Shown piece by piece: positions 1 through 20,382 of a DNA stretch of 64,000 nt. Below the pieces are notes generated by a model. The model made no database searches. It was not told where the DNA came from and saw only the letters and a program-made list of their open reading frames with translations. The stretch spans positions 1-64,000 of the IMG/VR virus record IMGVR_UViG_3300020161_002395; one strand, written 5' to 3'. Position numbers and translations under genes: made by a program. Origin of the DNA: a virus (lineage: Duplodnaviria; Caudoviricetes). The stretch's first letter is position 1; every line of letters starts with the position of its first letter.

Positions 1-309
1 CTTTGGGAATCCTTTTCTAGCTTTTGCATTCTTTTTAAAACTAGCTTTCAGTGCTGTGTCTAGGTATCTGATAGTTTGTTGTAAGCTGGTAGATGGTGGA
101 GTTTTCAACCATTCGGTAGCTTTTTTCAAACTAGTAAGATCCTTGCTATTTTTATTGAAAAACCTAAATGTTTGATTTATCTGGTATTGTTCAGTTTCTT
201 TTTGCAAGAAATAATTCCAGACATACCGATTAGAACCGATCACTTGTTTCAGTGATTCGATTTGTGAGTTATTGGGATATAACCGGTATTTGTATTTCAG
301 GTTTTGCAT
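1..309 (-). CDS. tnpB: IS200/IS605-family TnpB (RNA-guided nuclease), N-terminal part; runs off the window
   Basis: Manual translation MQNLKYKYRLYPNNSQIESLKQVIGSNRYVWNYFL...PSTSLQQTIRYLDTALKASFKK...GFPK matches the OrfB/TnpB N-terminal pattern (YKYRLYP, RYVWN, SLQQ, GFPK). Confidence 0.85.
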   Translation of the reverse strand, partial: MQNLKYKYRLYPNNSQIESLKQVIGSNRYVWNYFLQKETEQYQINQTFRFFNKNSKDLTSLKKATEWLKTPPSTSLQQTIRYLDTALKASFKKNAKARKGFPK

Positions 310-360
310 TAGGTATTTATTACGAATTGGTTGACAACTGCAATTTTTATTAGTATAATT

Positions 361-399
361 CGCCTTACATCCCCGACCTGAAGTTCGGGGTTTTACGGC
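361..399. mobile_element. IS200/IS605-type subterminal hairpin upstream of tnpB
   Basis: cgccttacatccccgacctgaagttcggggttttacggc; imperfect hairpin ccccga/tcgggg about 50 bp from the tnpB start. Confidence 0.6.
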
Positions 400-469
400 T
401 CACCGGATAAAAACGAGGCTGGTAGGGGTCTCCAAAGTGTTGTGAATTGTTGGACACTTAATTATTTAT

Positions 470-544
470 GGTCTGTTAGTGAAGCGGTAATCACTCCACC
501 CTGTCACGGTGGCATCACGGATTCGAATTCCGTACAGACCGCCA
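470..544 (+). tRNA. tRNA-Asp(GTC)
   Basis: Cloverleaf with acceptor ggtctgt/acagacc, anticodon arm ccacc-ctGTCac-ggtgg, TTCGAAT loop, GCCA end. Confidence 0.92.
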
Positions 545-659
545 AAATGCATAGCATCGCTTTATGCTATGGTAGGTAAGTGCCTCTCGACTCTGATACG
601 ATGCCTCTCAAACTACAACTAGAGTTCTAATTGCAAATGGAACATAAGCACAATTTTAT

Positions 660-743
660 GTCCGGGTAGTGTAACAATTACATAGTAATGAACACGTTAG
701 GCACATAGCCTAAAAATTCGGTGAAAATCCGACCTTGACTCCA
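660..743 (+). pseudogene. Degenerate tRNA-like RNA with CAT at the anticodon position
   Basis: Acceptor gtccggg/ccttgac + TCCA; arm ttagg-caCATag-cctaa; aberrant T loop (TGAAAAT) and enlarged D region. Confidence 0.5.
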
Positions 744-802
744 AATTAAAAAAACTTGACATAGTTTTATAACAATGATATATATCATTAATTAAGGAAA
801 AA

Positions 803-1348
803 ATGAAACATAAATCATTAATTTTAGAAAATAATAAAAAAATAGAAGTTCTTGATAATATATTTCCGATGGATTTCAGAACAAGTGCGTATGATTTTTG
901 TAGAAACTCCCTATTCAGAATAGGGTGGTCCGATACAAATCAACCTGATAAAAAAGCAAATGATTACTTTTTTCATTCTGTATTCTCTCAAAAAGATTTG
1001 GATAATCTTGGTATTATGAAATATATTATGGACAGTCCAGTTGCTGATATGATAGAGGGGTTAACTATACATCAATGCATAGTTAATTGTTCAACACCGA
1101 GCGACGTGAATTTCACACATATTCATCAACAAAACAAAGTATTGTTATATTATGTAAATTTAGATTGGCAAGATGGTTGGCACGGTGAAACACAGTTTTA
1201 CACCGAGGATAATAAAGAAGTTCAATACACATCACCATATACACCTGGGCGATTAATAGTATTTGATGCTAACATCCCACATGCAATTAGACCACAATCA
1301 ATTATTGGTCCACAGCATAGGTTTACATTGGCGATTGTTTATAAATAA
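803..1348 (+). CDS. 2OG-Fe(II) oxygenase (prolyl-hydroxylase-like)
   Basis: LLYYVNLDWQDGWHGETQF and PGRLIVFDANIPHAIRP...RFTLA motifs. Confidence 0.8.
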   Translation: MKHKSLILENNKKIEVLDNIFPMDFRTSAYDFCRNSLFRIGWSDTNQPDKKANDYFFHSVFSQKDLDNLGIMKYIMDSPVADMIEGLTIHQCIVNCSTPSDVNFTHIHQQNKVLLYYVNLDWQDGWHGETQFYTEDNKEVQYTSPYTPGRLIVFDANIPHAIRPQSIIGPQHRFTLAIVYK

Positions 1349-1352
1349 AAAC

Positions 1353-1380
1353 TTGACATAGTTTTAAAACGCTGTATAAT
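1353..1380 (+). promoter_or_regulatory. sigma70-like promoter (example; similar ones near 332, 4634, 7674, 10913, 13684, 20569, 23993, 55851, 62333)
   Basis: TTGACA-N16-TATAAT directly upstream of element copy 1. Confidence 0.8.
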
Positions 1381-1400
1381 AGACAGCATAAACAGTTTTT

Positions 1401-1460
1401 AGGATACATTCAGCAACTTAATACATTTGACTGCTAATCAAAACCGTAAAACGTATCCTG
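1401..1460 (+). ncRNA. CAGCA-box element copy 1; cargo is a Ser(GCT) anticodon stem-loop
   Basis: aggatac-attCAGCAA...gtatcctg enclosing tttga-CTGCTAA-tcaaa. Confidence 0.8.
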
Positions 1461-1491
1461 TTTTAACTTAACTAAATTAAATTAAATTAAT

Positions 1492-1755
1492 ATGGAAGAA
1501 TTTTCAATAACAAAACATGAGTATGAAAAGTTTCAAGCTCACTTTACTTTTACACTTATAAAAATTCCAACATATAGATATGGACAAGCTTTTTTAAATT
1601 ACTTTTATCCTGATGCCGGTGAATACTTAATAAGTATTAGTAATTTAGGTACACCTCCTGGTGTACACGTTCCAAATTTAGACTCCATATTATGGAGTGA
1701 AAAATCATATCATAAAGCAAAAGATATGATTGAAGATCATATAGAAATAAAATAA
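1492..1755 (+). CDS. hypothetical protein
   Basis: 87-aa ORF between RNA elements. Confidence 0.6.
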   Translation: MEEFSITKHEYEKFQAHFTFTLIKIPTYRYGQAFLNYFYPDAGEYLISISNLGTPPGVHVPNLDSILWSEKSYHKAKDMIEDHIEIK

Positions 1756-1792
1756 AGAATATTCGAGGCTAGTCACCAGCGAATAGACCATT

Positions 1793-1908
1793 AGGTTAGT
1801 TTCAGCAAGTATTTTATTCTTCAGAAAAAGAAAGTTCTAGGTTCGAATCCTAGCACTAAAGTTGGTCGTTTTAGTGTAGTTTAATTGGGAAAACAAAATG
1901 CTAACCTG
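1793..1908 (+). ncRNA. CAGCA-box element copy 2; permuted tRNA-like cargo (GAA-containing loop, Phe-like)
   Basis: aggttag/ctaacct helix; T arm ctagGTTCGAATCctag, closed acceptor cactaaa/tttagtg, then D arm tagtttaattgggaaaac. Confidence 0.8.
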
Positions 1909-1921
1909 TAAAATGAACAAT

Positions 1922-1995
1922 TGGGATATGGTGTAGTGGTAACACAACTGGTTTTGATCCAGTCATCCATGGTTCGAATCCGTGTATCCCTGCCA
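1922..1995 (+). tRNA. tRNA-Gln(TTG)
   Basis: Acceptor tgggata/tatccct, anticodon loop ttTTGat, GCCA end. Confidence 0.92.
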
Positions 1996-2021
1996 ATTTT
2001 TAACTTTTATCGGAAAAGATA

Positions 2022-2432
2022 ATGCAAGTAATTGAAAAAGAAGTAAAACCTTACAACTTAATCGCTGAGTATCCTAGATACAATGGTACTGACCTTATTG
2101 AAGCGGTAAAAGTTTCAGTTAGCTCTTATAGAAACTATAAAGCTGATACATTAAGAAATACTCCTCATCACTTGAAATCATTTGTTGAGCAATATTTCAA
2201 TGATGCTGATAAACACTTTGAACGAGTATTGGATGTGGCAATACAAATTCCAAATTCATTCACTGCGGAAGTAACTGATTTCAATTCCATTAAATTGGTA
2301 CATAACGATGTTCATTACTTCTTGAACTTGCGAGTTGATCTTGATTCCAAATCAATCGCTGAGTCAGAATTCGTTTTATCATTGGTGAAACGAACACGTT
2401 TTATGGAATCTGAAAAAGCACGATTATCATAA
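2022..2432 (+). CDS. hypothetical protein
   Basis: 136-aa ORF with GGA RBS. Confidence 0.65.
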   Translation: MQVIEKEVKPYNLIAEYPRYNGTDLIEAVKVSVSSYRNYKADTLRNTPHHLKSFVEQYFNDADKHFERVLDVAIQIPNSFTAEVTDFNSIKLVHNDVHYFLNLRVDLDSKSIAESEFVLSLVKRTRFMESEKARLS

Positions 2433-2443
2433 TCGTTTAATTT

Positions 2444-2535
2444 AGGATGATTACAGCAATGTAACCCCGAAGCCGATTAGTTGGAATCTTAACTGGGTTC
2501 GAATCCCTGGGCTCCGCCAAATCTATATCATCCTG
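2444..2535 (+). ncRNA. CAGCA-box element copy 3; cargo resembles a tRNA 3' half ending in CCA
   Basis: aggatga/tcatcct helix, tACAGCAA; cargo has gggTTCGAATccc followed by gctccGCCA. Confidence 0.75.
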
Positions 2536-2558
2536 TATTTTTTAACTTAGGAGATAAA

Positions 2559-2819
2559 ATGAAACAATTAGTATTAATTGGACTATTAGCTTTATTGGCA
2601 ACTGGCTGTGCTTCAACATCATCAGTTGAACAACTACAACAACGTCTTGACACTGTGGAAGCTAATGAAAAGGTCACCAATGAAGAAATTCAAGTATTAA
2701 AACGTGCTTGTGATCAGATGCAAAAAACTGCAAAAGAGCAACACTTGAAATGCGTAGAACATTGCAAAACACTTGAATCTAAATTAGATCGTGTTTTCAA
2801 AAAATCACAGTTGAAATAA
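2559..2819 (+). CDS. Lpp/OprI-like coiled-coil lipoprotein
   Basis: Signal peptide with lipobox LATG-C, heptad coiled coil, C-terminal LDRVFKKS. Confidence 0.65.
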   Translation: MKQLVLIGLLALLATGCASTSSVEQLQQRLDTVEANEKVTNEEIQVLKRACDQMQKTAKEQHLKCVEHCKTLESKLDRVFKKSQLK

Positions 2820-2827
2820 ACAATTTT

Positions 2828-2941
2828 AGGATCCTTGCAGCATACAATTTTGCATTCCAAGCCGGAAACACAGGTTCGAATCCTGTACTCTTTCATAAAG
2901 AGTTCGTCTAGTGGTCTAGGACACTGAAAAAGCAGATCCTG
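2828..2941 (+). ncRNA. CAGCA-box element copy 4; permuted tRNA-Glu/Gly-like cargo
   Basis: aggatc/gatcct helix; cattccaa-gccgg-aaac, T arm acagGTTCGAATCctgt, acceptor hairpin actcttt/aaagagt, Glu-type D arm tcgtctagtggtctaggac. Confidence 0.82.
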
Positions 2942-2958
2942 CTAAATAAGAGAATATT

Positions 2959-3354
2959 ATGGCAAATAATGAACCAAAACAAGTAATTGTAGTTAGAAAA
3001 GACTTAAATATGCGTAAAGGAAAAATCGCCGCACAATCAGCACATGCATCAATTGGTGCAATTCTTAATTATAGTGGTGAAATTTATGAAGATAGTTTAA
3101 CTCTTAATGTCGAAAATCAAGCAGTAAGAGAATGGCTAAATGGCAGATTTACAAAGATTTGTGTATCGGTCGATAGTGAACAAGAATTACTTGACATTTA
3201 TCAACAAGCATTGGATAATGGTGTAAATGTTAAATTAATAAAAGATTCAGGATTAACTGAATTTGATGGGGTTCCAACTTATACTTGTTTAGCATTAGGT
3301 CCAGATTATCCAGAAAACATTGACCCAATTAGTGGTCATTTAAAATTGTTATAA
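2959..3354 (+). CDS. pth2: Peptidyl-tRNA hydrolase II (Pth2 family)
   Basis: KQVIVVRKDLNMRKGKIAAQSAHAS, KIC, IKDSGLTE...TCLALGP motifs. Confidence 0.92.
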   Translation: MANNEPKQVIVVRKDLNMRKGKIAAQSAHASIGAILNYSGEIYEDSLTLNVENQAVREWLNGRFTKICVSVDSEQELLDIYQQALDNGVNVKLIKDSGLTEFDGVPTYTCLALGPDYPENIDPISGHLKLL

Positions 3355-3359
3355 ACATT

Positions 3360-3434
3360 GCCCTTGTAGTTTAAAGGATAGAATACCTGGCTACGAACCA
3401 GATGATGGGGTTTCGAATACCTCCGAGGGTGCCA
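3360..3434 (+). tRNA. tRNA-Arg(ACG)
   Basis: Acceptor gcccttg/cgagggt, loop ctACGaa, GCCA end. Confidence 0.88.
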
Positions 3435-3443
3435 ATTTAATTA

Positions 3444-3516
3444 TCTGATATAGCTCAGTAGGTAGAGCACCACGCAAAGTGGGAGGTCATCGGTTCGAGT
3501 CCGATTATTAGCTCCA
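3444..3516 (+). pseudogene. tRNA-like RNA with intact D and T arms and CCA but a collapsed anticodon arm
   Basis: tagctcagtaggtagagc D arm, ccac-gcaaa-gtgg (4 bp + 5 nt), atcgGTTCGAGTCcgat, TCCA end. Confidence 0.65.
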
Positions 3517-3529
3517 ATATTTTAAAAAT

Positions 3530-3775
3530 ATGAAAGTTGTTAAACTAAAAAAATCACATCACTTATTTCAATACGGATATACAGTTGCATTAAGATTTAG
3601 TTCACCATATTCTCCTGGTGCACAAGCTTGTAAATCAGTTCTATGTGAATCTTATGGTATCGATTATACTAAATGGCATACATTTCGATCAGGAAAGAAT
3701 AGACCATATTGGATCGGATTGACAGATGAAAAATTAATGACTTTCCTATTGTTGAAAGTAGATCTAACAAAATAG
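3530..3775 (+). CDS. hypothetical protein
   Basis: 81-aa ORF between tRNAs. Confidence 0.6.
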   Translation: MKVVKLKKSHHLFQYGYTVALRFSSPYSPGAQACKSVLCESYGIDYTKWHTFRSGKNRPYWIGLTDEKLMTFLLLKVDLTK

Positions 3776-3781
3776 AATATT

Positions 3782-3857
3782 GCCCTGGTGACGGAATGGC
3801 ATACGTACTGGTCTTAGAAACCAGGTTTTGGGAGTTCAAGTCTCCCCCAGGGTACCA
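3782..3857 (+). tRNA. tRNA-Leu(TAG) with a short variable loop
   Basis: Acceptor gccctgg/ccagggt, ctggt-ctTAGaa-accag, 5-nt variable loop, ACCA end. Confidence 0.88.
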
Positions 3858-3863
3858 AATAAT

Positions 3864-3953
3864 GGAAGTGTGGGTGAGTGGCTATAAACCGCTGGTCTTG
3901 AAAACCAGTAATCCGTAACGGGATCGTGAGATCGAATCTCACCATTTCCGCCA
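3864..3953 (+). tRNA. tRNA-Ser(TGA)
   Basis: Acceptor ggaagtg/catttcc, loop ctTGAaa, long variable arm, GCCA end. Confidence 0.9.
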
Positions 3954-4083
3954 AATATAGGAGCCCTTCGTGGCGGACAAGCTCTTAACCTATTAAAATA
4001 AACAAGAGTGAGTTAGTTGACCAGATAACTTTCAACAGGAAGGCAGAGGTTTCATAGAGATTAAACTGCCCTGGCAATTTTTT

Positions 4084-4157
4084 AGCCCGGTGATGAAATG
4101 GTATCATGACGGTCTCCAAACCCGCTCTTGGGGGCTCAAATACCTCCCGCGCTGCCA
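4084..4157 (+). tRNA. tRNA-Trp(CCA), atypical T arm
   Basis: Loop ctCCAaa, GCCA end, T loop CTCAAAT, some stem mismatches. Confidence 0.72.
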
Positions 4158-4196
4158 AATTTAAGCACTATATTAGTGCAAACGATAAGTAGTTAT

Positions 4197-4637
4197 ATGC
4201 TAAAAGTTTATAACGACACTGATTTTACTACTTATATGGATTATGAAGAAATAACTAGACAACTAGATACAATTAGTGTATTATATGTCCAAGTTCCAAC
4301 CGATGAGAACATCATTGAACAGATTAAACACGATTATGATGTTCCGTACAATGATACCATTGTATTGAACAGTTTAACTGAAAATTATCAAGAATTACGT
4401 GAGAAATTCAATAAAGAGCATTATCATACCGATTATGAAATGCGGTTATTCACTCAGGGTAATGCTAGATTCTTTTTTAATTTTTCTGGTACAATATATG
4501 AACTAAAAGTTGGGACAAATGATTTAATCAGTGTTCCAGCTAATGTTAAACACTGGTTTGATGCCGGTGAACATCCAAATGTAGCTGCAATAAGATTTTT
4601 TACTGAAAGCAATGGATGGGAAGCAATTTATACTTGA
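4197..4637 (+). CDS. mtnD: Acireductone dioxygenase (ARD/cupin)-like
   Basis: KFNKEHYHTDYEMRLF...DLISVPANVKHWFDAG...AIRFF...GWEA; start moved to ATG 4197 because the ORF-track start overlaps tRNA-Trp. Confidence 0.82.
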   Translation: MLKVYNDTDFTTYMDYEEITRQLDTISVLYVQVPTDENIIEQIKHDYDVPYNDTIVLNSLTENYQELREKFNKEHYHTDYEMRLFTQGNARFFFNFSGTIYELKVGTNDLISVPANVKHWFDAGEHPNVAAIRFFTESNGWEAIYT

Positions 4638-4703
4638 CAAACAAAATTATTAGTGTATAATGTATACTAATTAACAAGCTCTTTAACAATTTTAAAAGTT
4701 TTT

Positions 4704-4825
4704 AGGATCCGTACAGCATACAATAATTGCATGTGGAGCCGTTGGTCGTTGGTTCAAATCCAACATCCCCGATAAACTAACGGGGATTAGCTCAGTCTGG
4801 TAGAGCAACGTAAAAAAGGATCCTG
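4704..4825 (+). ncRNA. CAGCA-box element copy 5; circularly permuted tRNA-Pro(TGG)
   Basis: aggatcc/ggatcct helix; 3' half (TGG-agccgtt-ggtc-gttgGTTCAAATCcaac-atccccg) precedes 5' half (cggggat-tagctcagtctggtagagc-aacg). Confidence 0.88.
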
Positions 4826-4884
4826 TTAAATTAATTATTGACAAATAATTAAACTAGTGTATTATACACTAAATAAAGAATTAA

Positions 4885-4959
4885 CGCAGAGTATATCAGT
4901 GGTAGATTGTTGGGCTCATAACCCAAAGGACGAGTGTTCGAATCACTCCTCTGCCTCCA
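4885..4959 (+). tRNA. tRNA-Met(CAT), initiator-type
   Basis: Mismatched first pair, ttggg-ctCATaa-cccaa with three G-C pairs, TCCA end. Confidence 0.85.
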
Positions 4960-4965
4960 AAATTT

Positions 4966-5100
4966 AGAATGCTTACAGCAACTATATTTTATTAATAAGA
5001 AACCGTTATCTTTGATTTGTAGGTTCAAGTCCTACCTTAAAACCAGGTTTTAAGTGGCGAAACTGGTAAACGCGATGGTAAAAAAATAAAATGCATTCTG
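4966..5100 (+). ncRNA. CAGCA-box element copy 6; permuted tRNA-Leu(TAA)-like cargo
   Basis: agaatgc/gcattct helix; aaTAAga, long variable region, gtagGTTCAAGTCctac, acceptor cttaaaa/ttttaag, Leu-type D arm tggcgaaactggtaaacgc. Confidence 0.82.
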
Positions 5101-5113
5101 ATAAAGAATTAAT

Positions 5114-5197
5114 GCGACTGTGGTGGAACGGTTTACACAGTGGGCTTAAAACCCATACTCTTCGGAGTTGCCAGTTCGAATCTGGCCAGTCGTACCA
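5114..5197 (+). tRNA. tRNA-Leu(TAA)
   Basis: Acceptor gcgactg/cagtcgt, loop ctTAAaa, variable arm actcttcggagt, ACCA end. Confidence 0.92.
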
Positions 5198-5207
5198 AAT
5201 AAAATAT

Positions 5208-5297
5208 GAAGATGTGGCCGAGATAGGACTATGGCACTTTCCTGCTAAGAAAGCATACCGCAAGGTATCACTGGTTCGAATCCAGTCATCTTCGCCA
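5208..5297 (+). tRNA. tRNA-Ser(GCT)
   Basis: Acceptor gaagatg/catcttc, ctttc-ctGCTaa-gaaag, long variable arm, GCCA end. Confidence 0.9.
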
Positions 5298-5314
5298 AAT
5301 TTAAGGGTAATTAA

Positions 5315-5593
5315 ATGATTAGTGGTGAACATAAAGGTATTAAGTATACCATTACAGAAGAAGCTTGTGATGATCTGCTTAAATTTCACGGTATTAATGC
5401 CATTGATGAATTTAAACGTGGAATTGAATTGGAATTGGAACAACTTCAATCAACAGTAATAATTGAAAATGATATTGCTACACTTCATATTACTAAAAAA
5501 ATAAATTTAGGATCTTTACAGCAACACTTTTTGGATTATAACAACACAAAATTGTTAGGTGGTTCAAATCCACCAAAAACCAAGATCCTGTAA
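5315..5593 (+). CDS. hypothetical protein; 3' end reads through element copy 7
   Basis: ORF with RBS; last ~28 codons overlap an RNA element. Confidence 0.5.
   Translation: MISGEHKGIKYTITEEACDDLLKFHGINAIDEFKRGIELELEQLQSTVIIENDIATLHITKKINLGSLQQHFLDYNNTKLLGGSNPPKTKIL
5509..5590 (+). ncRNA. CAGCA-box element copy 7; cargo is a hairpin plus a T arm
   Basis: aggatct/agatcct helix; taacaa/ttgtta hairpin then ggtgGTTCAAATCcacc. Confidence 0.78.
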
Positions 5594-5599
5594 AGTTTT

Positions 5600-5656
5600 A
5601 GGATGCATTCAGCAATTTTAAAAAACAAACTTGAAATTTGAAAAAAACGCATCCTG
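5600..5656 (+). ncRNA. CAGCA-box element copy 8; cargo is a Ser(TGA) anticodon stem-loop
   Basis: aggatgc/gcatcct helix enclosing caaa-CTTGAAA-tttg. Confidence 0.8.
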
Positions 5657-5801
5657 TTAGAATAGAAATATAAATAAACACATAGTTTACAATAAAATGC
5701 GGTGCGAGATTTAGACATTGTATATCAATGTTTTGAATGATCGGTATCTTGGTACAACTCACTCTTGATACTAAACTATCTATTAATTAAGTGTTATATG
5801 C

Positions 5802-5887
5802 TCCACCCTACTCTAATGGTAAGAGGACTGACTGTTAATCAGTTGTAATCGGGAAACCGTATGCGTGTTCGAGTAGCGCGGGTGGAG
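5802..5887 (+). tRNA. tRNA-Asn(GTT) with a long variable arm, no encoded CCA
   Basis: Acceptor tccaccc/gggtgga, actga-ctGTTaa-tcagt, 19-nt variable region containing cgg-gaaa-ccg. Confidence 0.8.
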
Positions 5888-6000
5888 CATATAGCATTTA
5901 GTGCTGTATTGACAATTCAAATAACTAATGATATAATTGTATTTTTTCGGGCCACAGCGAATTACGATAATGAGAATTATTGACTGTGGCAATCAATTTT

Positions 6001-6075
6001 GGGGAATAAGTGTTGTAGGTGGCACACAAGATTTGCATTCTTGAAGGAGCGATTCGATTTCGCTATTCTCCACCA
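6001..6075 (+). tRNA. tRNA-Ala(TGC)
   Basis: G3:U70 pair, caaga-ttTGCat-tcttg, ACCA end. Confidence 0.88.
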
Positions 6076-6104
6076 AAATTTTAACACACTGACTAGACGG
6101 TACT

Positions 6105-6284
6105 ATGTTTGAGAATTTAGAAGAACCAACTGAATTTGATTATGAATTGATTAAAATCATATATCGATTGATGACATTAGAAGAAAGAACGGAATTTTCG
6201 AACAAGATTAAAGAATCATTTAGTCAAAATGATTTAATTGCAACAAAAGAATTAGCCAAAACTATATTGGCAACAAAAATGTAA
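6105..6284 (+). CDS. small hypothetical protein (59 aa, not in ORF track)
   Basis: MFENLEEPTEFDYELIK... open frame in line with downstream genes. Confidence 0.5.
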   Translation: MFENLEEPTEFDYELIKIIYRLMTLEERTEFSNKIKESFSQNDLIATKELAKTILATKM

Positions 6285-6295
6285 AGGATTATACG

Positions 6296-6484
6296 ATGGC
6301 AGGATGGCATGGTGGTAAAGGATCTAAATCAAGACCAGTAAACAGACAGAAATTTGCTGATAATTGGGATGCGATCTTTGGAAAGAAACCAGAAGTTAAA
6401 GAAGAAGTAAGTGATACAACAACTGAAGAAGCAGTTGAAATTATCAAAGAATATAAAAAAACACTTGACAACGATAATAAATAA
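6296..6484 (+). CDS. small hypothetical protein
   Basis: AAGGA RBS; MAGWHGGKGSKSRP...WDAIFGKK. Confidence 0.6.
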   Translation: MAGWHGGKGSKSRPVNRQKFADNWDAIFGKKPEVKEEVSDTTTEEAVEIIKEYKKTLDNDNK

Positions 6485-6504
6485 TAGTATAATAAGGACA
6501 TCAA

Positions 6505-6684
6505 ATGGCAACTATTAGTAAAGCAAACAGAAAAGCTAACCCTAATCAAACTAAAAATGGTAAGGTTAGAATTGGTAATTTTAGTTTAGCTAAATTGCAA
6601 GAACTAGTTGAAAAAACTAGTAGACCACGTGATAAACGTAAATATCAAAATCGTATTAACATTCTTATTAAAAGAGGTGCCTAA
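6505..6684 (+). CDS. small basic protein (59 aa, not in ORF track)
   Basis: AAGGA RBS; MATISKANRKANPNQTKNGKVRIG...; K/R-rich. Confidence 0.55.
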   Translation: MATISKANRKANPNQTKNGKVRIGNFSLAKLQELVEKTSRPRDKRKYQNRINILIKRGA

Positions 6685-6824
6685 TGGCCGTAGAAGTAAA
6701 GAAATGCAATTGTAATCACGAATTTCAAGACAAAACATACGGTAAAGGTATGCGAGTTATGAATCTCGATTTTAAGAAAACTAATGCCACTTGTACAGTA
6801 TGTGGTACTAAACACAAAGTTTAA
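6684..6824 (+). CDS. small Cys-rich, putative Zn-binding protein (46 aa)
   Basis: GAGG RBS; MAVEVKKCNCNHEFQDKTYGKGMRVMN...CTVCG. Confidence 0.55.
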   Translation: MAVEVKKCNCNHEFQDKTYGKGMRVMNLDFKKTNATCTVCGTKHKV

Positions 6825-6858
6825 AGAATAAGTCCTTCTAATGGAAGGACTACTAAAT

Positions 6859-6941
6859 GCTGAGTTCCTATAGCGGCGATTAGAGCGGTCTTGTAAGCCG
6901 TTGGTTAATACCCACCGTGGGTTCGAGTCCCACACTCAGCT
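6859..6941 (+). tRNA. tRNA-Thr(TGT) with a long variable arm, no encoded CCA
   Basis: Acceptor gctgagt/actcagc, loop ctTGTaa, ~15-nt variable region, gtggGTTCGAGTCccac. Confidence 0.75.
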
Positions 6942-6997
6942 TACCCAATTAATTTAAGAATAGTTTTCCAAGTTAATTGATGTAATATAAACAATTT

Positions 6998-7052
6998 AGG
7001 ATACATTCAGCAAGTAAAAAACTTTCAATTGGTGAAAACAAAACGTATCCTG
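6998..7052 (+). ncRNA. CAGCA-box element copy 9
   Basis: aggatac/gtatcct helix; cargo hairpin tttca-attgg-tgaaa. Confidence 0.8.
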
Positions 7053-7068
7053 TTAATAGGAAAACATA

Positions 7069-7677: not shown

Positions 7678-7711
7678 CATCATAAGATATTTTTAGTATA
7701 ATAAGATTTTT

Positions 7712-7766
7712 AGGATACATTCAGCAAGTAAAAAACTTTCAATTGGTGAAAACAAAACGTATCCTG
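7712..7766 (+). ncRNA. CAGCA-box element copy 10 (identical to copy 9)
   Basis: Exact repeat of 6998-7052; own promoter TTGACA 7674 / TATAAT 7697. Confidence 0.8.
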
Positions 7767-7789
7767 TTAAATTTTATAAAGCACTTTGA

Positions 7790-7875
7790 GCGGGTGTAGC
7801 TCAGTATGGTTAGAGCGCGGTCCTTCCAAGTCCGAGGCGAATAGTTTTACGCAGGTTCAAATCCTGTCACCCGCT
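7790..7875 (+). tRNA. tRNA-Gly(TCC) with an enlarged variable region, no CCA
   Basis: Acceptor gcgggtg/cacccgc, loop ctTCCaa, 16-nt variable region; flanks pair (aaagcactttga/tcaaagtgcttt). Confidence 0.75.
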
Positions 7876-7887
7876 CAAAGTGCTTTG

Positions 7888-8640: not shown

Positions 8641-8795
8641 TTAATTTCTCCAGATATAAATAAAAGTATGGGACAGCCTAGTTCTCCAGACTGGGTTTTG
8701 AAATACTCGTAATATTTCAATTACCATAACTATTTATCAAAAAGTTATTGACACAATTTTAATTTTTTGTTATAATTACATAAATTAAAAGTTTT

Positions 8796-8850
8796 AGGCT
8801 CAATTCAGCATACATCATCTTACCATTATAAAGAAACCAAGATGAGCCTG
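8796..8850 (+). ncRNA. CAGCA-box element copy 11
   Basis: aggctca/tgagcct helix (compensatory changes), attCAGCAT; promoter upstream. Confidence 0.78.
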
Positions 8851-8979
8851 TTTTAATGATTGACAACTACAATACTATAAAGTATAATACAACAAATAAC
8901 TGGTGCTATTACAACTAATAATTACTATATCGATCATAGATCCGAGTTACATAGATAGTACCAGTTATAAACGAATAAT

Positions 8980-9052
8980 TGCGGGGTATATCAGTGGTAG
9001 ATAGCTGGGCTCATAACCCAGAGGTCGTTGGTTCGATTCCAACCCTCCGCTT
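8980..9052 (+). tRNA. tRNA-Met(CAT), second initiator-type copy, no intact CCA
   Basis: ctggg-ctCATaa-cccag, gttgGTTCGATTCcaac. Confidence 0.8.
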
Positions 9053-9093: not shown

Positions 9094-9196
9094 AGGGTCA
9101 CTACAGCAATCAATGTTTAAGCCAAGCTGGAGGAACGGTTCGATTCCGTCTAGAAGTATACCGGTTGTATGCCAGCAATAACAAATGATGACCCTG
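9094..9196 (+). ncRNA. CAGCA-box element copy 12; permuted tRNA-Gly(GCC)-like cargo without an acceptor stem
   Basis: agggtca/tgaccct helix; aaGCCaa-gctgg, acgGTTCGATTCcgt, D-like agtataccggttgtat, ccagc pairing with gctgg. Confidence 0.8.
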
Positions 9197-9209
9197 TTTT
9201 AATAATTTT

Positions 9210-9320
9210 AGGATACATTCAGCAAGTTGATACACCCTGGAGGTCGTAGGTTCGAGTCCTACATTCTCTTAAGAGGATTAGCTCAGTTGGGAGAGCGCCT
9301 GGCTAAAAACACGTATCCTG
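9210..9320 (+). ncRNA. CAGCA-box element copy 13; permuted tRNA-Val(TAC)-like cargo
   Basis: aggatac/gtatcct helix; gaTACac, aggtc, gtagGTTCGAGTCctac, acceptor attctct/agaggat, D arm tagctcagttgggagagc. Confidence 0.85.
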
Positions 9321-9340
9321 TTTTAATTCAAAAGGAATAT

Positions 9341-9613: not shown

Positions 9614-9617
9614 GTTT

Positions 9618-10038: not shown

Positions 10039-10131
10039 GGAATAGCTACAGCAAAAAGTTCGCGGTTAATACCCGCTCCGGAAAGACTTCTTTTGCTATT
10101 AGAAGAAAAACAAATGGCAATCCCTATTCCG
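10039..10131 (+). ncRNA. CAGCA-box element copy 14
   Basis: ggaatag/ctattcc-g helix, ctACAGCAA; multi-hairpin non-tRNA cargo. Confidence 0.72.
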
Positions 10132-10140
10132 AACTATTTT

Positions 10141-10247
10141 AGGCTAGATACAGCAATCCAAATATTATAATGGATGGACTGGCGAACATACTGCTGGTCG
10201 AACTGGAAGGAAAGAGCCAGTATAAACCTTCAACAAACACTAGCCTG
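10141..10247 (+). ncRNA. CAGCA-box element copy 15
   Basis: aggctag/ctagcct-g helix, atACAGCAA. Confidence 0.75.
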
Positions 10248-10257
10248 TTACCTTTTT

Positions 10258-10462
10258 AGGATGTTTACCGCATAATAAACCTATAACTGCTGCCACTAAT
10301 CTTGTATTGAGTGGCTATTACTGGAATAATTAACCAGAGTAGCTTCTAACGCGAAAGTTAGATATTGCTAATAAGAATTATTAGATAGGGTTATGGATTA
10401 ACTCCCCCAAGTGGGTAGATGATAACCAGAAGAAAATAAAATACATCCTTCCGAACATCCTG
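10258..10462 (+). ncRNA. CAGCA-box element copy 16 (longest; variant box CCGCAT)
   Basis: aggatgtt/aacatcct-g helix; ~180-nt cargo with several hairpins. Confidence 0.65.
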
Positions 10463-10486
10463 TTTTAAACTTTTAATTGGTACTAA

Positions 10487-10950: not shown

Positions 10951-10986
10951 AGTTTAGTAAACAGCAAACAAAAACACACTAACCTG
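10951..10986 (+). promoter_or_regulatory. Minimal cargo-less CAGCA-box element (copy 17) in the 5' leader of the TROVE/vWA gene
   Basis: agtttagt-aaACAGCAA-acaaaaacac-actaacct-g between the promoter (TTGACA 10913 / TATAAT 10935) and RBS AGGAG at 10991. Confidence 0.7.
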
Positions 10987-11002: not shown

Positions 11003-12421
11003 ATGACTACATTCGTAGAAGCAGTAGAAAATCAAGAATCTCATACCGCTAATGGTATGAAAGCACTTAAATCAACCACTAATAAAGCAGTAGACTTTTT
11101 CTACAATGTCGGCGCAAGCCGTGGTAAAGACATTATTCCTGCTTTTACATCAGCATATGTTGAAGATAAAGATCTAGCAATGCGTATTGCATTATGGGCA
11201 CGAGATGCTCGTGGTGGTTCCGGTGAACGTAAATTGTTCCGAGATATTTTAGCTCATTTAGAAACAGTTGACATCGATGCTGCAAAAGCATTGTTATCAA
11301 AGGTCCCAGAATTGGGTCGTTGGGACGATATTTTCGTTTTCAAAACTCAAGAAATGAAAACCGAAGCTTTCACAATGTTGAAAAATGCATTGACTGATGG
11401 TAATGGTTTAGCAGCTAAATGGACACCACGTAAAGGTGATGTAGCAGTTGAATTCCGTAAGTTTTTAGGTTGGAGCCCAAAGCAATACCGCAAAACATTG
11501 GTTTCTTTGACTAACGTTGTTGAAACGCAAATGTGTGCAAATGATTGGGATAACATCAACTTTAACCATGTGCCATCATTGGCAAGTGCTCGATACAAAA
11601 AAGCATTCAACCGCCATACTCCAAAGTTTGCAGAATATGTTGCAAAACTAATCGCCGGTGATAAGTCTGTTAGTGTTGCAGCTGGTGCAGTTTTCCCTTA
11701 TGATGTACTAAAAGGTGTTGGTAGTTACGGTTTTGATAGAACTGAAAAAAATCACATCATCGCCCAATGGGATGCGTTACCAAATTTTGTTGGCGATGCT
11801 AATATCTTACCATTGGTCGATGTTAGTGGTTCTATGAGTTGTAAAGCAGGTGGTCATAACTCTAAAACTGATTTAACCTGTATGGATGTTGCAGTATCAC
11901 TAGGTTTATACTTGGCTGATAAAAACACTGGTAAGTTTAAAGATACCTTTATTACCTTCAGTGAACGTCCAGAGTTGTTAACTCTACGCGGTAACGTGGT
12001 AGAAAAAGCAACTCAAATGGTTAAATCTGCATGGGGTATGAGTACTAACTTACACGCTGCATTTGATTTAATTTTAGATGTAGCAACCAAGTTTGATGTA
12101 CCACAAGCTGAAATACCAGAAATGCTCCTTATACTTTCCGATATGCAGTTCAGTCCATCAACTATCAGAGGAATTGATGAAACAGCAATGGAAATGATAA
12201 CACGTAAATATGAAGCAGCTGGGTATACAATTCCACAAATTGTGTTCTGGAACATCAATGCTGCTGACAACGTACCAGTTAAATCTGACAAGTCAGGTGC
12301 GGCGATGGTTTCTGGATTCAGTCCAGCTATTGTTAAAGCATTATTATCAGCTGATATGAGCGACTTCACCCCTGAAGGCATCATGTTAAAAACTGTAATG
12401 GTTGACCGATACGCTGTTTAA
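11003..12421 (+). CDS. TROVE/Ro60-like protein with C-terminal vWA domain (DUF2828-like)
   Basis: TANGM, RDARGGSGER, GRWDD, LAAKWTPR, VPSLA motifs; MIDAS DVSGS...STN...ILSDMQF, IVFWN, VSGFS. Confidence 0.8.
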   Translation: MTTFVEAVENQESHTANGMKALKSTTNKAVDFFYNVGASRGKDIIPAFTSAYVEDKDLAMRIALWARDARGGSGERKLFRDILAHLETVDIDAAKALLSKVPELGRWDDIFVFKTQEMKTEAFTMLKNALTDGNGLAAKWTPRKGDVAVEFRKFLGWSPKQYRKTLVSLTNVVETQMCANDWDNINFNHVPSLASARYKKAFNRHTPKFAEYVAKLIAGDKSVSVAAGAVFPYDVLKGVGSYGFDRTEKNHIIAQWDALPNFVGDANILPLVDVSGSMSCKAGGHNSKTDLTCMDVAVSLGLYLADKNTGKFKDTFITFSERPELLTLRGNVVEKATQMVKSAWGMSTNLHAAFDLILDVATKFDVPQAEIPEMLLILSDMQFSPSTIRGIDETAMEMITRKYEAAGYTIPQIVFWNINAADNVPVKSDKSGAAMVSGFSPAIVKALLSADMSDFTPEGIMLKTVMVDRYAV

Positions 12422-15170: not shown

Positions 15171-15721
15171 TGAAAATATTTATAACGTCAGACCTTTGAC
15201 TACATTTTGATCACAAAAATATACTAAAATTCCAACCAACTACACGTCCATATGGCGATGTTGACCATATGAATGCTGAGATAATTCGTATATGGAATGA
15301 AAATGTATCACCGGAAGACCTAACTTACATTTTAGGTGATGTAGCATTCTGCAAACCATCAAAAGCAGCAATGTTCATGCATTCCTTAAATGGTCGTAAA
15401 ATCCTCATTGAAGGTAATCATGATGAACGATTAGTTGAAAATGCAGAATTCCGTGATTGCTTTGAGGCAATTTATCAATATCACGAAATGAAACATAATG
15501 GCCATCGGATCTGTATGTTTCACTTTCCAATCTCTGAATGGCGTGATTGTCATCATGGTTCTGTTATGCTTCATGGTCACTTACATGGTAATCCAAGCGG
15601 CTTAACTGAATATAGAATTCGAGATGTTGGATTTGATGCAACTGGAAACATCGTGACATTACTTGATGACATCGTAAATGATGCTTTAACTGGTAAAATT
15701 AGATTACATGGGTGGAGATAA
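15170..15721 (+). CDS. Calcineurin-like metallophosphoesterase with an in-frame TGA at 15197-15199
   Basis: MKIFITSDL*LHFDH...LGDVAF...GNHD...HFP...LHGHLH; AAGGAGG RBS before ATG 15170. Confidence 0.8.
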
Positions 15722-16614
15722 TGACTTTTTTGGTAAATCAAGATATAAAACACTTTGTAGAAAATAATCCAACCTTAGTTTCTCGCAAAGATACTTCATA
15801 TCCAGGTGTTTATGTTCTAAAATACAAGAAAAAAGTATTTTATGACAATTTATGGAACGAATACTTGGAAGAATGCCGTGGAACATTGGTTGATGGTGAC
15901 TACAACGTCATTTCACGTCCATTTACTAAAATCTATAACTATGGGATTGAAAAACGTGCGCCATTATTAGATGATTCTGTTATAGTATCGGCATTTCGTA
16001 AAGTAAACGGCTTTATGGTTGCTATAACTTGGTACAATGATGATATCTTAGTATCAACTACTGGGTCAATTGATTCTGACTATGTAAAAATGGCATTAGA
16101 ATTGATTGATATTAACGCATATCGTGAAGTTTGTAAAAACTGGAAAGGTTTTACCTTTATGTTTGAGTGTGTTCATCCGAATGATCCGCATATCATCCCA
16201 GAAGAAGTTGGTATGCACCTGTTAGGATATCGTGAAAACTTCTGGAACAGTAAAGTAATGGCGGAACCTGATGAATTATACTGTTTAACGAAACAATTTG
16301 GATGCCATGAGGTTGGACACCATCATTTAACTGTTGGAACATTATTGAAAATAGTGAAATGTGTTAAACATGAAGGGTTTGTGTTCTATACCAATGATGG
16401 TGTAAGTGCTAAAATAAAATCACCATACTATTTGGTGAAGAAATTCGTAGCACGTAATCCAAATACCACTAAGTTGTTGGCATCTAATGTGAAAGAAAAA
16501 GTTGATGAAGAATATTATCCACTAATTGATCATATCCAATCAAATATTGATGAATTTACTGCGTTAGATGAACAGAATAGACTACAATGGGTTAGAAATT
16601 TCTTAGAAAATTAA
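15721..16614 (+). CDS. RNA ligase, T4 Rnl1-like
   Basis: ECRG, PFTKIYNYG, motif I KVNG, FECVHP, EGFV, KIKSPYY. Confidence 0.85.
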   Translation: MTFLVNQDIKHFVENNPTLVSRKDTSYPGVYVLKYKKKVFYDNLWNEYLEECRGTLVDGDYNVISRPFTKIYNYGIEKRAPLLDDSVIVSAFRKVNGFMVAITWYNDDILVSTTGSIDSDYVKMALELIDINAYREVCKNWKGFTFMFECVHPNDPHIIPEEVGMHLLGYRENFWNSKVMAEPDELYCLTKQFGCHEVGHHHLTVGTLLKIVKCVKHEGFVFYTNDGVSAKIKSPYYLVKKFVARNPNTTKLLASNVKEKVDEEYYPLIDHIQSNIDEFTALDEQNRLQWVRNFLEN

Positions 16615-19542: not shown

Positions 19543-20382
19543 ATGAAAATAACAGTTGTTAGTGATTTACATACAGAATTTAGTCCAATTTCATTGAATA
19601 ATTCTCAGAACGCAGACGTGTTAATATTGTCTGGTGATATTTTAATGTCTGAAATATTACATGATTACCAGATAGATTCTACTGATACTGTTCATAATAA
19701 CAGCCGCCATTTAAAAGCACTTCAATTTAGACAATTTTTACAAGAATGTTCAGATCAATTTAGAAATATAGTGATGATCGCAGGAAACCATGAATTTTAT
19801 CAGGGAAAATTTCATGCAGGGTTAGATTACCTTAAAGAAGAATGTTCAAGATATCCAAATATCCATTTTTTAGAAAATTCCTCTATTAAAATCGATGATG
19901 TTTTGTTTATTGGTGCAACATTGTGGACCGATGCAAATAAAGGTGATCCGTTGACAAAATATCAACTACCATATATGATGAATGATTATAAATTAATTAA
20001 AAATGATCATAAGGGGTTTAGAAGATTACAAATTGAAGATACTATCGAAAGACATCATAAATCAATGGATTATATTGAAATGATGGTTGAGAATGCACCC
20101 TCTGATACGAAAATAGTTATAGCCACGCATCATTCTCCTAGTTATTTGAGTATCGTAGACAAATATAAAGATGATTATGAAATGAATGGTGGATACCATA
20201 GTGATTTATCTAAATTCATTATAGATAATCCAAATATTTCACTGTGGTGTCACGGACATACACATGAAGTATTGGATTATAAACTCGGTGAAACTAGAAT
20301 TGTATGTAATCCACGTGGTTATGAAGGTGAATCATATAGTGAAAATACAGGCTGGAATCCGAACCTTTTATTGGAGATATAA
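19543..20382 (+). CDS. Metallophosphoesterase
   Basis: SDLH, SGDI, GNHE, THH, HGHTH motifs. Confidence 0.88.
   Translation: MKITVVSDLHTEFSPISLNNSQNADVLILSGDILMSEILHDYQIDSTDTVHNNSRHLKALQFRQFLQECSDQFRNIVMIAGNHEFYQGKFHAGLDYLKEECSRYPNIHFLENSSIKIDDVLFIGATLWTDANKGDPLTKYQLPYMMNDYKLIKNDHKGFRRLQIEDTIERHHKSMDYIEMMVENAPSDTKIVIATHHSPSYLSIVDKYKDDYEMNGGYHSDLSKFIIDNPNISLWCHGHTHEVLDYKLGETRIVCNPRGYEGESYSENTGWNPNLLLEI

What the first reader, a model, noticed from the sequence alone, without database searches (positions are those of the whole stretch)
1401..5656. Scaffolds that present only an anticodon stem-loop (Ser GCT and Ser TGA)
Copy 1 cargo is tttga-CTGCTAA-tcaaa and copy 8 cargo is caaa-CTTGAAA-tttg. 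Both are canonical 7-nt loops (C32 U33, anticodon, A37 A38) identical to the loops of the phage's own tRNA-Ser(GCT) at 5208 and tRNA-Ser(TGA) at 3864, but on unrelated stems. Copies 9 and 10 may present a Gln(TTG)-like loop (weaker). An anticodon loop without a tRNA body cannot translate, so the simplest reading is a substrate decoy for anticodon nucleases or anticodon-modifying enzymes (inference).
Basis: partly seen in the sequence, partly recalled or inferred. Interest (0 to 1): 0.8.

Follow-up and report, generated by a model that had tools for sequence, protein, structure and literature searches.

The report
Anticodon-loop mimics on Ro-like RNA handles
An uncultured large phage carries 17 small RNA genes that share one "handle" beside a gene for a Ro60-shaped RNA-binding protein, and the two smallest in this stretch display exact copies of serine-tRNA anticodon loops; the same pattern recurs in related phages and may bait enzymes that cut or read tRNA anticodons.

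Summary
Copies at 1401-1459 and 5600-5655 are 56-59-nt RNAs. Each is closed by a 7-bp stem followed by UNCAGCAA, and each insert is a short hairpin. The hairpins' 7-nt loops (CUGCUAA, CUUGAAA) are identical to the anticodon loops of the phage's own tRNA-Ser(GCU) and tRNA-Ser(UGA), on unrelated AU-rich stems.

Of 60 non-redundant "mini" inserts from related viral contigs, 27 carry a hairpin whose loop is identical to a real phage tRNA anticodon loop. Shuffled inserts give 1.4 +/- 1.1. Stems are mostly exactly 5 bp. A34 is nearly absent. Orthologous copies keep C32-U33 and A37-A38 but swap the triplet.

The scaffold is the shared handle of a Y-RNA-like family: 17 copies, all on the + strand at 1401-10985. 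It lies next to a DUF2828/DUF7788 gene (11003-12421) whose model folds like Ro60. Longer copies carry permuted tRNA-like bodies and give sub-threshold YrlA hits.

The handle differs from the published Ro-binding motif, and I found neither an Rfam family nor a paper describing it. The decoy function against anticodon nucleases stays an inference. This scan has already noted the same system on other DNA, in at least 77 genomes.

The parts
1401..1461 (+). e01: mini handle RNA. 7-bp closing stem, UUCAGCAA, then a 5-bp hairpin with loop CUGCUAA (1431-1437), the same loop as tRNA-Ser(GCU).
   Evidence: Orthologue alignment A2: 99.3% of cells paired, 4 pairs with compensatory changes. A perfect sigma-70 consensus promoter lies at 1353-1380.
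5600..5657 (+). e08: mini handle RNA. 7-bp closing stem, UUCAGCAA, then a 4-bp hairpin with loop CUUGAAA (5630-5636), the same loop as tRNA-Ser(UGA).
   Evidence: Syntenic orthologues in L003, L004 and L005 carry CAA or GAA in the same CU...AA frame.
3864..3953 (+). Phage tRNA-Ser(UGA), whose anticodon loop e08 copies.
   Evidence: ARAGORN, Rfam tRNA 53.7 bits.
5208..5297 (+). Phage tRNA-Ser(GCU), whose anticodon loop e01 copies.
   Evidence: ARAGORN, Rfam tRNA 49.7 bits.
1793..1909 (+). e02: handle RNA with a permuted tRNA-like insert (T arm, closed acceptor, D arm).
   Evidence: T-arm motif found.
2444..2536 (+). e03: handle RNA with a T arm plus a 3' acceptor-CCA-like insert.
2828..2942 (+). 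e04: handle RNA with a permuted tRNA-like insert.
4704..4826 (+). e05: handle RNA with a permuted tRNA-like insert. This is the best YrlA-like hit.
   Evidence: Rfam YrlA RF02553, 48.9 bits (gathering score 69), E 1.2e-8..
4966..5101 (+). e06: variant handle (AGAAUGC stem) with a tRNA-like insert.
5509..5591 (+). e07: handle RNA whose insert carries only a T arm.
6998..7053 (+). e09: mini handle RNA with a hairpin loop AUUGG. This is a separate conserved class, not an anticodon loop.
7712..7767 (+). e10: identical copy of e09, starting a few bases after a perfect consensus promoter (7674-7702).
8796..8851 (+). e11: mini handle RNA with no clean hairpin here. Its L003 orthologue has a UUGCAAA loop closed by a mismatched pair.
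9094..9197 (+). e12: handle RNA with a T-arm-containing insert.
9210..9321 (+). e13: handle RNA with a permuted tRNA-like insert.
   Evidence: Rfam YrlA 37.9 bits, E 1.8e-5..
10039..10130 (+). e14: variant handle (GGAAUAG stem).
10141..10248 (+). e15: handle RNA with a structured insert of unknown kind.
10258..10463 (+). e16: variant handle (CCGCA in place of CAGCA) with an insert of about 190 nt of unknown kind.
10951..10985 (+). e17: handle with almost no insert, lying between a perfect promoter (10913-10940) and the start codon of the Ro60-like gene.
11003..12421 (+). Ro60-like protein (Pfam DUF2828 + DUF7788, phrog_850), the presumed protein partner of the handles.
   Evidence: Pfam. PHROGs. 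AF2 model pLDDT 93.4. The top 13 Foldseek PDB hits are all Ro60, E 3e-9 to 4e-5. The MIDAS residues D273, S275 and S277 are invariant.
15712..16614 (+). Rnl1-type RNA ligase (neighbourhood context).
   Evidence: Pfam RNA_lig_T4_1 6.7e-11. phrog_562 2e-53.
19543..20382 (+). Metallophosphoesterase (neighbourhood context).
   Evidence: Pfam Metallophos 4.6e-13. phrog_1649.

Best explanation
e01 and e08 are the smallest members of a family of handle-tagged small RNAs built like Y RNAs. The 5' and 3' ends pair into a 7-bp stem. A conserved internal loop follows (UNCAGCAA on the 5' side, an A-rich AAAACG-like run on the 3' side), and a variable insert sits inside. The handle is most likely the binding site of the phage's Ro60-like DUF2828 protein, encoded at the end of the array (inferred from adjacency across phage families and from the Ro60/Y RNA precedent). 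In long members the insert is a permuted tRNA body. In e01 and e08 it is a selected mimic of a tRNA anticodon stem-loop, which the statistics and the orthologue comparison show. The particle would then display a naked anticodon arm as bait for proteins that read anticodon loops. The most likely targets are host anticodon nucleases, which it would soak up or divert so that phage and host tRNAs are spared (inference). Swapping the triplet would retarget the bait.
For: - Handle family. There are 13 exact motif hits against 0.55 expected. They are the only ones in the 164.7-kb record, and all have complementary arms. Stems covary.
- Protein partner. The AF2 model (pLDDT 93.4) matches Ro60 structures over its full length and has an invariant MIDAS motif. 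Handle RNAs sit beside this gene in Citrobacter phage Ci1, Cronobacter phage S13, Synechococcus phage BUCT-ZZ01, Vibrio phage nt-1, Listeria phage cka16 and E. coli phage Alf5.
- Long copies hit Rfam YrlA below threshold.
- Anticodon mimicry, main count. Of 60 non-redundant mini inserts, 27 have a hairpin loop identical to a real phage tRNA anticodon loop, against 1.4 +/- 1.1 in shuffles. Over all unique inserts the count is 65 of 131 against 3.2. The stricter test gives 19 of 61 against 0.98.
- Anticodon mimicry, controls. Real hairpins elsewhere in the same contigs reach only 2.1%. Unfiltered 7-nt loops show U33 in 31 of 34, A37 in 30 of 34, C32 in 22 of 34 and A34 in 1 of 34. Stems are exactly 5 bp in 24 of 34.
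- Syntenic orthologues of e08 carry UGA, CAA or GAA in the same frame.
- The Lys UUU triplet makes up 26% of distinct mimics but 2.5% of phage tRNA genes. tRNA-Lys(UUU) is the target of PrrC (PMC1484252) and, with Thr(UGU) and Asn(GUU), of PARIS AriB (PMC12409363).
- Perfect consensus promoters lie directly upstream of five copies: e01, e05, e10, e11 and e17. An Rnl1-type ligase and a phosphoesterase lie within 9 kb.
Against: - No binding, expression or cleavage data exist for this phage.
- The mimic stems are AU-rich (22% GC against 60% in real anticodon stems) and would lack tRNA modifications, so some nucleases may ignore them.
- About half of the mini inserts show no anticodon-like loop. 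These include the AUUGG class and others.
- e08 has only a 4-bp stem.
- Some e01 orthologues have A at position 33, which would break the U-turn and hints at relaxed constraint.
- The triplets match tRNA genes of the same contig only modestly more often than permuted pairings (45 of 72 against 37.2 +/- 3.5).
- I know of no common phage-defence nuclease aimed specifically at tRNA-Ser.
Confidence: 0.45

Rival explanations
1. Tether rather than decoy. As Y RNA tethers Ro60 to PNPase, the insert would recruit a tRNA-handling enzyme to the Ro-like ring. Candidates are the phage Rnl1-type ligase, end-healing enzymes or modification enzymes. Broken or misfolded tRNAs held by the ring would then be repaired or degraded. 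Anticodon-arm inserts would recruit enzymes that act on the anticodon loop.
For: The fold is Ro60-like. An Rnl1-type ligase, a phosphoesterase and a YqeY-like gene lie just downstream. The tether and gate model for Y RNAs is published (PMC4201824), as is PNPase recruitment by a phage Ro60 (PMC12135203). Inserts cover whole tRNA bodies and single arms, not only anticodon arms.
Against: A tether to one repair enzyme does not need many different triplets or fast triplet turnover between orthologues. No interaction was tested.
Confidence: 0.2
2. The insert matters little. The handles would mainly titrate or regulate the Ro-like protein (including autoregulation through the copy in its own leader) or mark processing sites in the tRNA transcripts. 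The hairpins would be stabilising stems whose loops drifted from, or were copied out of, neighbouring tRNA genes.
For: A copy with almost no insert sits in the leader of the protein gene. e11 has no clean hairpin. Half of the mini inserts lack anticodon-like loops. Some orthologues carry A33.
Against: Drift does not explain a roughly 20-fold excess of exact anticodon loops. It also does not explain the 5-bp stem preference, the avoidance of A34, or conserved flanks around changing triplets at syntenic sites. The stems are not copies of tRNA stems.
Confidence: 0.12
3. The loops are generic U-turn (YUNR-type) loops that start RNA-RNA pairing with another RNA, such as an mRNA or another handle RNA. 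In that case they would not be mimics of anticodon arms aimed at proteins.
For: C/U32-U33 followed by exposed bases is the classic U-turn geometry that antisense RNAs also use (my own knowledge, not tested here).
Against: Only three variable bases are presented, and I looked for no complementary target. Identity over all 7 loop positions with real tRNA loops, the 5-bp stems and the A34 avoidance all point to tRNA mimicry.
Confidence: 0.06
4. Chance resemblance in AT-rich sequence.
For: A-rich and U-rich loops are common in this genome.
Against: The background rate for a loop among the window's own tRNA loops is 0.24% per hairpin. The family-wide excess lies beyond all 200 shuffles.
Confidence: 0.02

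Closest known systems
Bacterial and mycobacteriophage Ro60 (Rsr) with YrlA-type Y RNAs (Rfam RF02553; Chen et al. 2014, PMC4201824)
   Same: Small RNAs are encoded on the same strand next to a Ro60-fold gene. The 5' and 3' ends pair into a stem with a conserved internal loop. The long members carry a tRNA-like domain opened at the anticodon-arm position (T arm, closed acceptor, D arm). An RNA ligase is nearby.
   Different: The protein is the DUF2828/DUF7788 family, with no Pfam TROVE hit. The conserved motif is UNCAGCAA, not GNCGAAN0-1G. There are 17 copies instead of one to a few. The Rfam score is below threshold. Mini members with only an anticodon-arm mimic are not described for YrlA.
Thermus phage phiLo Ro60 with Yrl1 and Yrl2 (PMC12135203; PDB 9KOP, 9L5Y)
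   Same: A phage-encoded Ro60-fold protein has partner RNA genes just upstream. The structures are among the top fold matches to the protein here.
   Different: The phiLo RNAs carry the CGAA motif and no tRNA parts. The sequence identity of the proteins is about 16%.
Listeria phage CKA15 abundant non-coding transcripts upstream of the Rsr-like CKA15_055 (PMC12282133)
   Same: CKA15_055 was called Rsr-like by HHpred in that paper. A511/P100-type Listeria phages carry a homologue of the protein here (about 34% identity), so it very likely belongs to this family. The authors saw very abundant non-coding RNAs within 2 kb upstream and suggested they may be Y RNAs. The sister phage cka16 has three handle RNAs directly upstream of the gene.
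   Different: The paper describes no handle motif, no tRNA-part inserts and no anticodon mimicry. I could not verify that the abundant transcripts are the handle RNAs.
Phage answers to anticodon nucleases: T5 tRNA variants against PARIS AriB (PMC12409363), and T4 Pnkp/Rnl1 repair of PrrC-cut tRNA-Lys (PMC1484252 for PrrC)
   Same: The battleground is the same, the anticodon loops of specific tRNAs. The mimicked triplets include Lys UUU, Thr UGU and Asn GUU. An Rnl1-type ligase is encoded nearby.
   Different: Known answers are functional replacement tRNAs or repair enzymes. Protein-bound anticodon-arm baits are not among them.

Membership tests
YrlA / Y RNA-like (Rfam RF02553) | Score at or above the Rfam gathering threshold (69 bits). 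| tested here: not met
   e05 scores 48.9 bits and e13 37.9 bits. e01 and e08 give no YrlA hit at E up to 1.
YrlA / Y RNA-like (Rfam RF02553) | GNCGAAN0-1G Ro-binding motif near the 5' end (PMC4201824). | tested here: not met
   The conserved 5' motif is UNCAGCAA in all copies.
YrlA / Y RNA-like (Rfam RF02553) | tRNA-like domain with T arm, D arm and closed acceptor stem. | tested here: not met
   This is met only by long copies such as e02, e04, e05, e06 and e13. e01 and e08 hold a single 17-nt or 15-nt hairpin.
YrlA / Y RNA-like (Rfam RF02553) | Encoded near a Ro60 orthologue and on the same strand. | tested here: met
   All 17 copies are on the + strand within 9.6 kb upstream of the Ro60-like gene. 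The nearest is 18 nt from its start codon. e01 and e08 themselves lie 9.5 and 5.3 kb away, beyond the 4 kb used by Chen et al.
YrlA / Y RNA-like (Rfam RF02553) | Physical association with the Ro60 protein. | not testable with these tools
   This needs RIP or EMSA.
Ro60 / TROVE + vWA proteins (for ORF 11003-12421) | Helical-repeat ring followed by a vWA domain. | tested here: met
   The AF2 model has pLDDT 93.4. The top 13 Foldseek hits are Ro60 chains, TM 0.39-0.62 (12 of the 13 at 0.45 or above), E down to 3e-9.
Ro60 / TROVE + vWA proteins (for ORF 11003-12421) | MIDAS motif (DxSxS) in the vWA domain. | tested here: met
   D273, S275 and S277 are invariant in 73 sequences.
Ro60 / TROVE + vWA proteins (for ORF 11003-12421) | Match to the Pfam TROVE domain. 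| tested here: not met
   Pfam gives only DUF2828 and DUF7788. A profile search against PDB sequences reaches TROVE and Ro60 chains only weakly, E 0.012-0.17.
tRNA (for e01 and e08) | Cloverleaf with acceptor stem, D arm and T arm. | tested here: not met
   ARAGORN and Rfam make no tRNA call at 1401-1461 or 5600-5657. The elements are 56-59 nt long.
tRNA (for e01 and e08) | Anticodon arm with a 5-bp stem and a 7-nt loop with U33 and purine 37. | tested here: met
   e01 has 5 bp plus CUGCUAA. e08 has 4 bp plus CUUGAAA. Family-wide, 24 of 34 stems are 5 bp.
RNA decoy of anticodon nucleases (functional class) | Bound or cleaved by an anticodon nuclease, and protects tRNA. | not testable with these tools
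   This needs biochemical and genetic tests.

The most novel reading that the evidence does not exclude
Phages with a Ro60-like DUF2828 protein keep a library of protein-bound RNA baits on one common handle. The baits are whole tRNA bodies, single arms and bare anticodon arms. They retarget the anticodon baits by swapping the triplet, in an arms race with host anticodon nucleases. This would be a programmable RNA-decoy counter-defence and would give the tRNA-like modules of Y RNAs a function.
Probability: 0.3. Interest if true: 0.9.

Novelty: new variant of a known kind. Interest (0 to 1): 0.78.

Why it matters
Ro60/Y RNA particles occur from bacteria to humans, yet the purpose of the tRNA-like part of bacterial Y RNAs is unknown. 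Here a very large phage protein family (710 phage records, 6124 clusters at 50% identity) is paired with RNAs that display tRNA parts, including bare anticodon arms with changing triplets. If these are baits for tRNA-directed immunity, they would be a new kind of counter-defence. They would also give a direct experimental route into Y RNA function and explain the 'pseudo-tRNA' or 'tRNA-OTHER' calls in phage genomes. The handle could serve as a natural scaffold for displaying RNA hairpins.

Tried and rejected
- Megablast of 1-12500 against GenBank phages gave no match.
- phmmer of the protein against PDB sequences gave no hit, and NCBIfam gave none.
- My first fixed-spacing motif was too loose: 14 hits against 8.5 expected. 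I replaced it.
- My first stem scan without the AGG/CCU requirement gave many false hits in coding sequence. I tightened it, so variant handles are under-counted.
- Split-tRNA idea (a mini anticodon arm pairing in trans with a tRNA-like body): rejected. Every handle is self-complementary and no trans pairing is needed.
- Reading the AUUGG loops of e09 and e10 as Gln anticodon loops: rejected, because the loop is 5 nt and differs from the tRNA-Gln loop. A D-loop resemblance is only a lead: ATTGG occurs in the D region of 152 of 1505 phage tRNAs.
- The test that loop variation concentrates at positions 34-36 (13 of 15 variable columns) is partly circular, because the set was chosen for Y32-U33 and R37. 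I rely on the syntenic orthologues instead.
- E. coli Felixounavirus Alf5 has four handle RNAs but no clear anticodon mimic.
- I could not open Burroughs and Aravind 2016.
- No covariance model was built.

Full report
**What is in the sequence.**
- The first 11 kb of the window is a phage tRNA region. ARAGORN tRNAs, and Rfam adds two more tRNA hits.
- A repeated scaffold is interleaved with the tRNAs and small ORFs. It starts with U-rich sequence, then a 7-bp stem beginning AGG. One base later comes UNCAGCA(A), then a variable insert and an A-rich run. It ends with the complementary stem strand finishing in CCU, followed by GU.
- A motif for the 5' part has 13 exact matches in the window, all on the + strand, against 0.55 expected. 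These 13 are the only matches in the whole 164.7-kb virus record.
- Every one of the 13 has its complementary 3' arm 54-204 nt downstream.
- Four variant copies bring the array to 17, spanning 1401-10985.

**The two copies in the finding.**
- e01 (1401-1459) and e08 (5600-5655) are the shortest kind.
- e01 holds a 5-bp hairpin with loop CUGCUAA at 1431-1437. e08 holds a 4-bp hairpin with loop CUUGAAA at 5630-5636.
- These loops are identical to the anticodon loops of the phage's own tRNA-Ser(GCU) at 5208-5297 and tRNA-Ser(UGA) at 3864-3953. The stems are unrelated.
- Both copies lie between + strand ORFs.
- Only 0.24% of comparable AT-rich hairpins elsewhere in the fetched contigs carry one of the window's 14 tRNA loops. 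Two hits among four distinct mini inserts is therefore not chance.
- Copies 9 and 10 (6998, 7712) have a 5-nt AUUGG loop that does not match the tRNA-Gln loop.

**What the scaffold is.**
- The ORF at 11003-12421 follows the array on the same strand. Pfam gives DUF2828 plus DUF7788, and PHROGs gives phrog_850 'RNA-binding protein'.
- An AlphaFold model built on 73 homologues has pLDDT 93.4. Its 13 best matches among solved structures are all Ro60: Xenopus, human, Deinococcus and Thermus phage phiLo, with E down to 3e-9 over the full length.
- The vWA MIDAS residues are invariant.
- Two long copies give sub-threshold hits to the Rfam Y RNA-like family YrlA, 48.9 and 37.9 bits against a threshold of 69.
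- By reading and folding, the long inserts are tRNA bodies opened at the anticodon arm: T arm, loop-closed acceptor stem and D arm. This is the YrlA architecture (PMC4201824).
- In Citrobacter phage Ci1 the same module sits at the anticodon-arm position of two non-permuted tRNA-like RNAs and closes one permuted RNA. All three lie right after the DUF2828 gene.
- Handle RNAs also flank the gene in Cronobacter S13, cyanophage BUCT-ZZ01, Vibrio nt-1, Listeria cka16 and E. coli Alf5.
- The scaffold is therefore best read as the protein-binding handle of a Y-RNA-like family. Binding itself is inferred, not shown.

- I fetched 80 viral contigs encoding relatives of the protein (66-90% identity) and more than 100 stretches with the handle motif.
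- A scan found 326 unique elements. Their lengths cluster at about 50-65 nt for the mini class (132 elements of 75 nt or less) and peak again at about 110-120 nt, with a tail of longer elements.
- RNAfold on the mini inserts gives 7 nt as the commonest loop length. Without any filter on loop sequence, U33 occurs in 31 of 34 loops, A37 in 30, A38 in 27, C32 in 22 and A34 in 1.
- As reference I used the anticodon loops of 1505 distinct phage tRNA genes from the same contigs, 143 distinct loops.
- With a stem of at least 4 bp, 19 of 61 non-redundant mini inserts have a hairpin loop identical to a real anticodon loop. Dinucleotide shuffles give 0.98 +/- 1.07, with a maximum of 5 in 200.
- Allowing one mismatched closing pair gives 27 of 60 against 1.4 +/- 1.1, and 65 of 131 unique inserts against 3.2.
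- Real hairpins outside tRNAs and handles in the same contigs reach 2.1%.
- Stems are exactly 5 bp in 24 of 34 distinct mimics. Their GC content is 22%, against 60% for real anticodon stems, so they are not copied tRNA arms.

**Triplet turnover.**
- The array is collinear with that of the closest relatives.
- The e01 orthologue keeps GCU.
- At the e08 position the handle stem is the same and the element lies directly after the e07 orthologue. There L003 has CAA and L004/L005 have GAA, each within CU...AA, where the window has UGA.
- Broader e01 relatives carry GCU, UUU or UCU. Their predicted structure is 99.3% paired, with four compensatory pairs.
- Ci1 and S13 differ in the same way at one mini element, CAA against UAA.
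- Among 34 distinct mimics, Lys UUU is the commonest at 26%, against 2.5% of the tRNA genes. Ser, Phe, Asn, Thr and Arg triplets follow.
- The mimicked triplet is also a tRNA gene in the same contig somewhat more often than in permuted pairings: 45 of 72 against 37.2 +/- 3.5.

**How it most likely works.**
- Shown: a handle family with covarying stems, a Ro60-fold gene beside it, and anticodon-arm mimicry in about half of the mini members.
- Inferred: the protein binds the handle and the particle displays the insert.
- I commit to bait for anticodon-loop-reading proteins as the function, and the most likely targets are host anticodon nucleases.
   - The favoured triplets include the known targets of PrrC and PARIS AriB (PMC1484252, PMC12409363).
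   - The triplet turns over quickly between close relatives.
   - Strong consensus promoters sit directly in front of five copies.
   - An Rnl1-type ligase and a phosphoesterase lie close by.
- Against this reading:
   - There are no expression or binding data.
   - The stems are AU-rich and unmodified.
   - Half of the mini inserts have other loops.
   - Some orthologues carry A33.
- The main rival is a tether that brings repair or modification enzymes to the ring.

**Comparison with what is known.**
- Phage Ro60 with Y RNAs is published (PMC4201824, PMC12135203). Those cases use canonical TROVE proteins and a GNCGAA or CGAA motif.
- For the DUF2828 family, the one relevant paper I found notes abundant non-coding transcripts upstream of the Rsr-like gene of Listeria phage CKA15 and guesses they may be Y RNAs (PMC12282133). 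It describes neither the handle nor tRNA-part inserts.
- Rfam 15 has no family for the mini elements.
- Earlier notes of this scan describe the same handle system in at least 77 other genomes. I treated those as leads only.
- I rate the finding a new variant of a known kind of particle. Anticodon-arm display is the new feature.

Noticed in passing
window 3444-3513: Rfam calls a tRNA here (43.6 bits) that ARAGORN misses. By eye its anticodon arm has a 4-5-bp stem and only a 5-nt loop, so it may be an aberrant or mimic tRNA.
   Followed up: no
window 4084-4154: A second Rfam-only tRNA (33 bits) with loop CUCCAAA, which reads as Trp CCA. ARAGORN does not call it.
   Followed up: no
window 5802-5888, 6859-6941, 7790-7876: The tRNA-Asn, tRNA-Thr and tRNA-Gly calls are 83-87 nt long, with extra sequence between the anticodon arm and the T arm. 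This is unusual for these isotypes.
   Followed up: no
window 331-10940, + strand: Nine perfect 12-of-12 sigma-70 consensus promoters lie in 12.5 kb. Five of them (1353-1380, 4634-4661, 7674-7702, 8748-8776, 10913-10940) lie directly upstream of handle RNAs e01, e05, e10, e11 and e17.
   Followed up: partly
window 10951-10985: A handle with almost no insert lies between a consensus promoter and the start codon of the Ro60-like gene.
   Followed up: partly
window 6998-7053 and 7712-7767; related loci: A separate conserved mini class has AUUGG(A/C/U) loops on varied stems (12 of 131 unique inserts). It loosely resembles a tRNA D arm.
   Followed up: partly
window 10141-10248 and 10258-10463: Two handle RNAs carry structured inserts of about 90 and 190 nt with no tRNA features and no Rfam match. 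Both are conserved in L003-L005.
   Followed up: no
L001 16893-17125 (Citrobacter phage Ci1): Two non-permuted tRNA-like RNAs end in CCA and have the handle module in place of the anticodon arm. One is annotated tRNA-Pseudo/OTHER. Cronobacter S13 annotates its counterparts as a 121-nt tRNA-Ser and a tRNA-OTHER.
   Followed up: partly
L200 6430-7000 (Listeria phage cka16): A stretch of about 560 nt without ORFs lies behind a consensus promoter, 1 kb upstream of the DUF2828 gene. It has no handle motif. It probably corresponds to the most highly transcribed non-coding region reported for CKA15 (PMC12282133).
   Followed up: no
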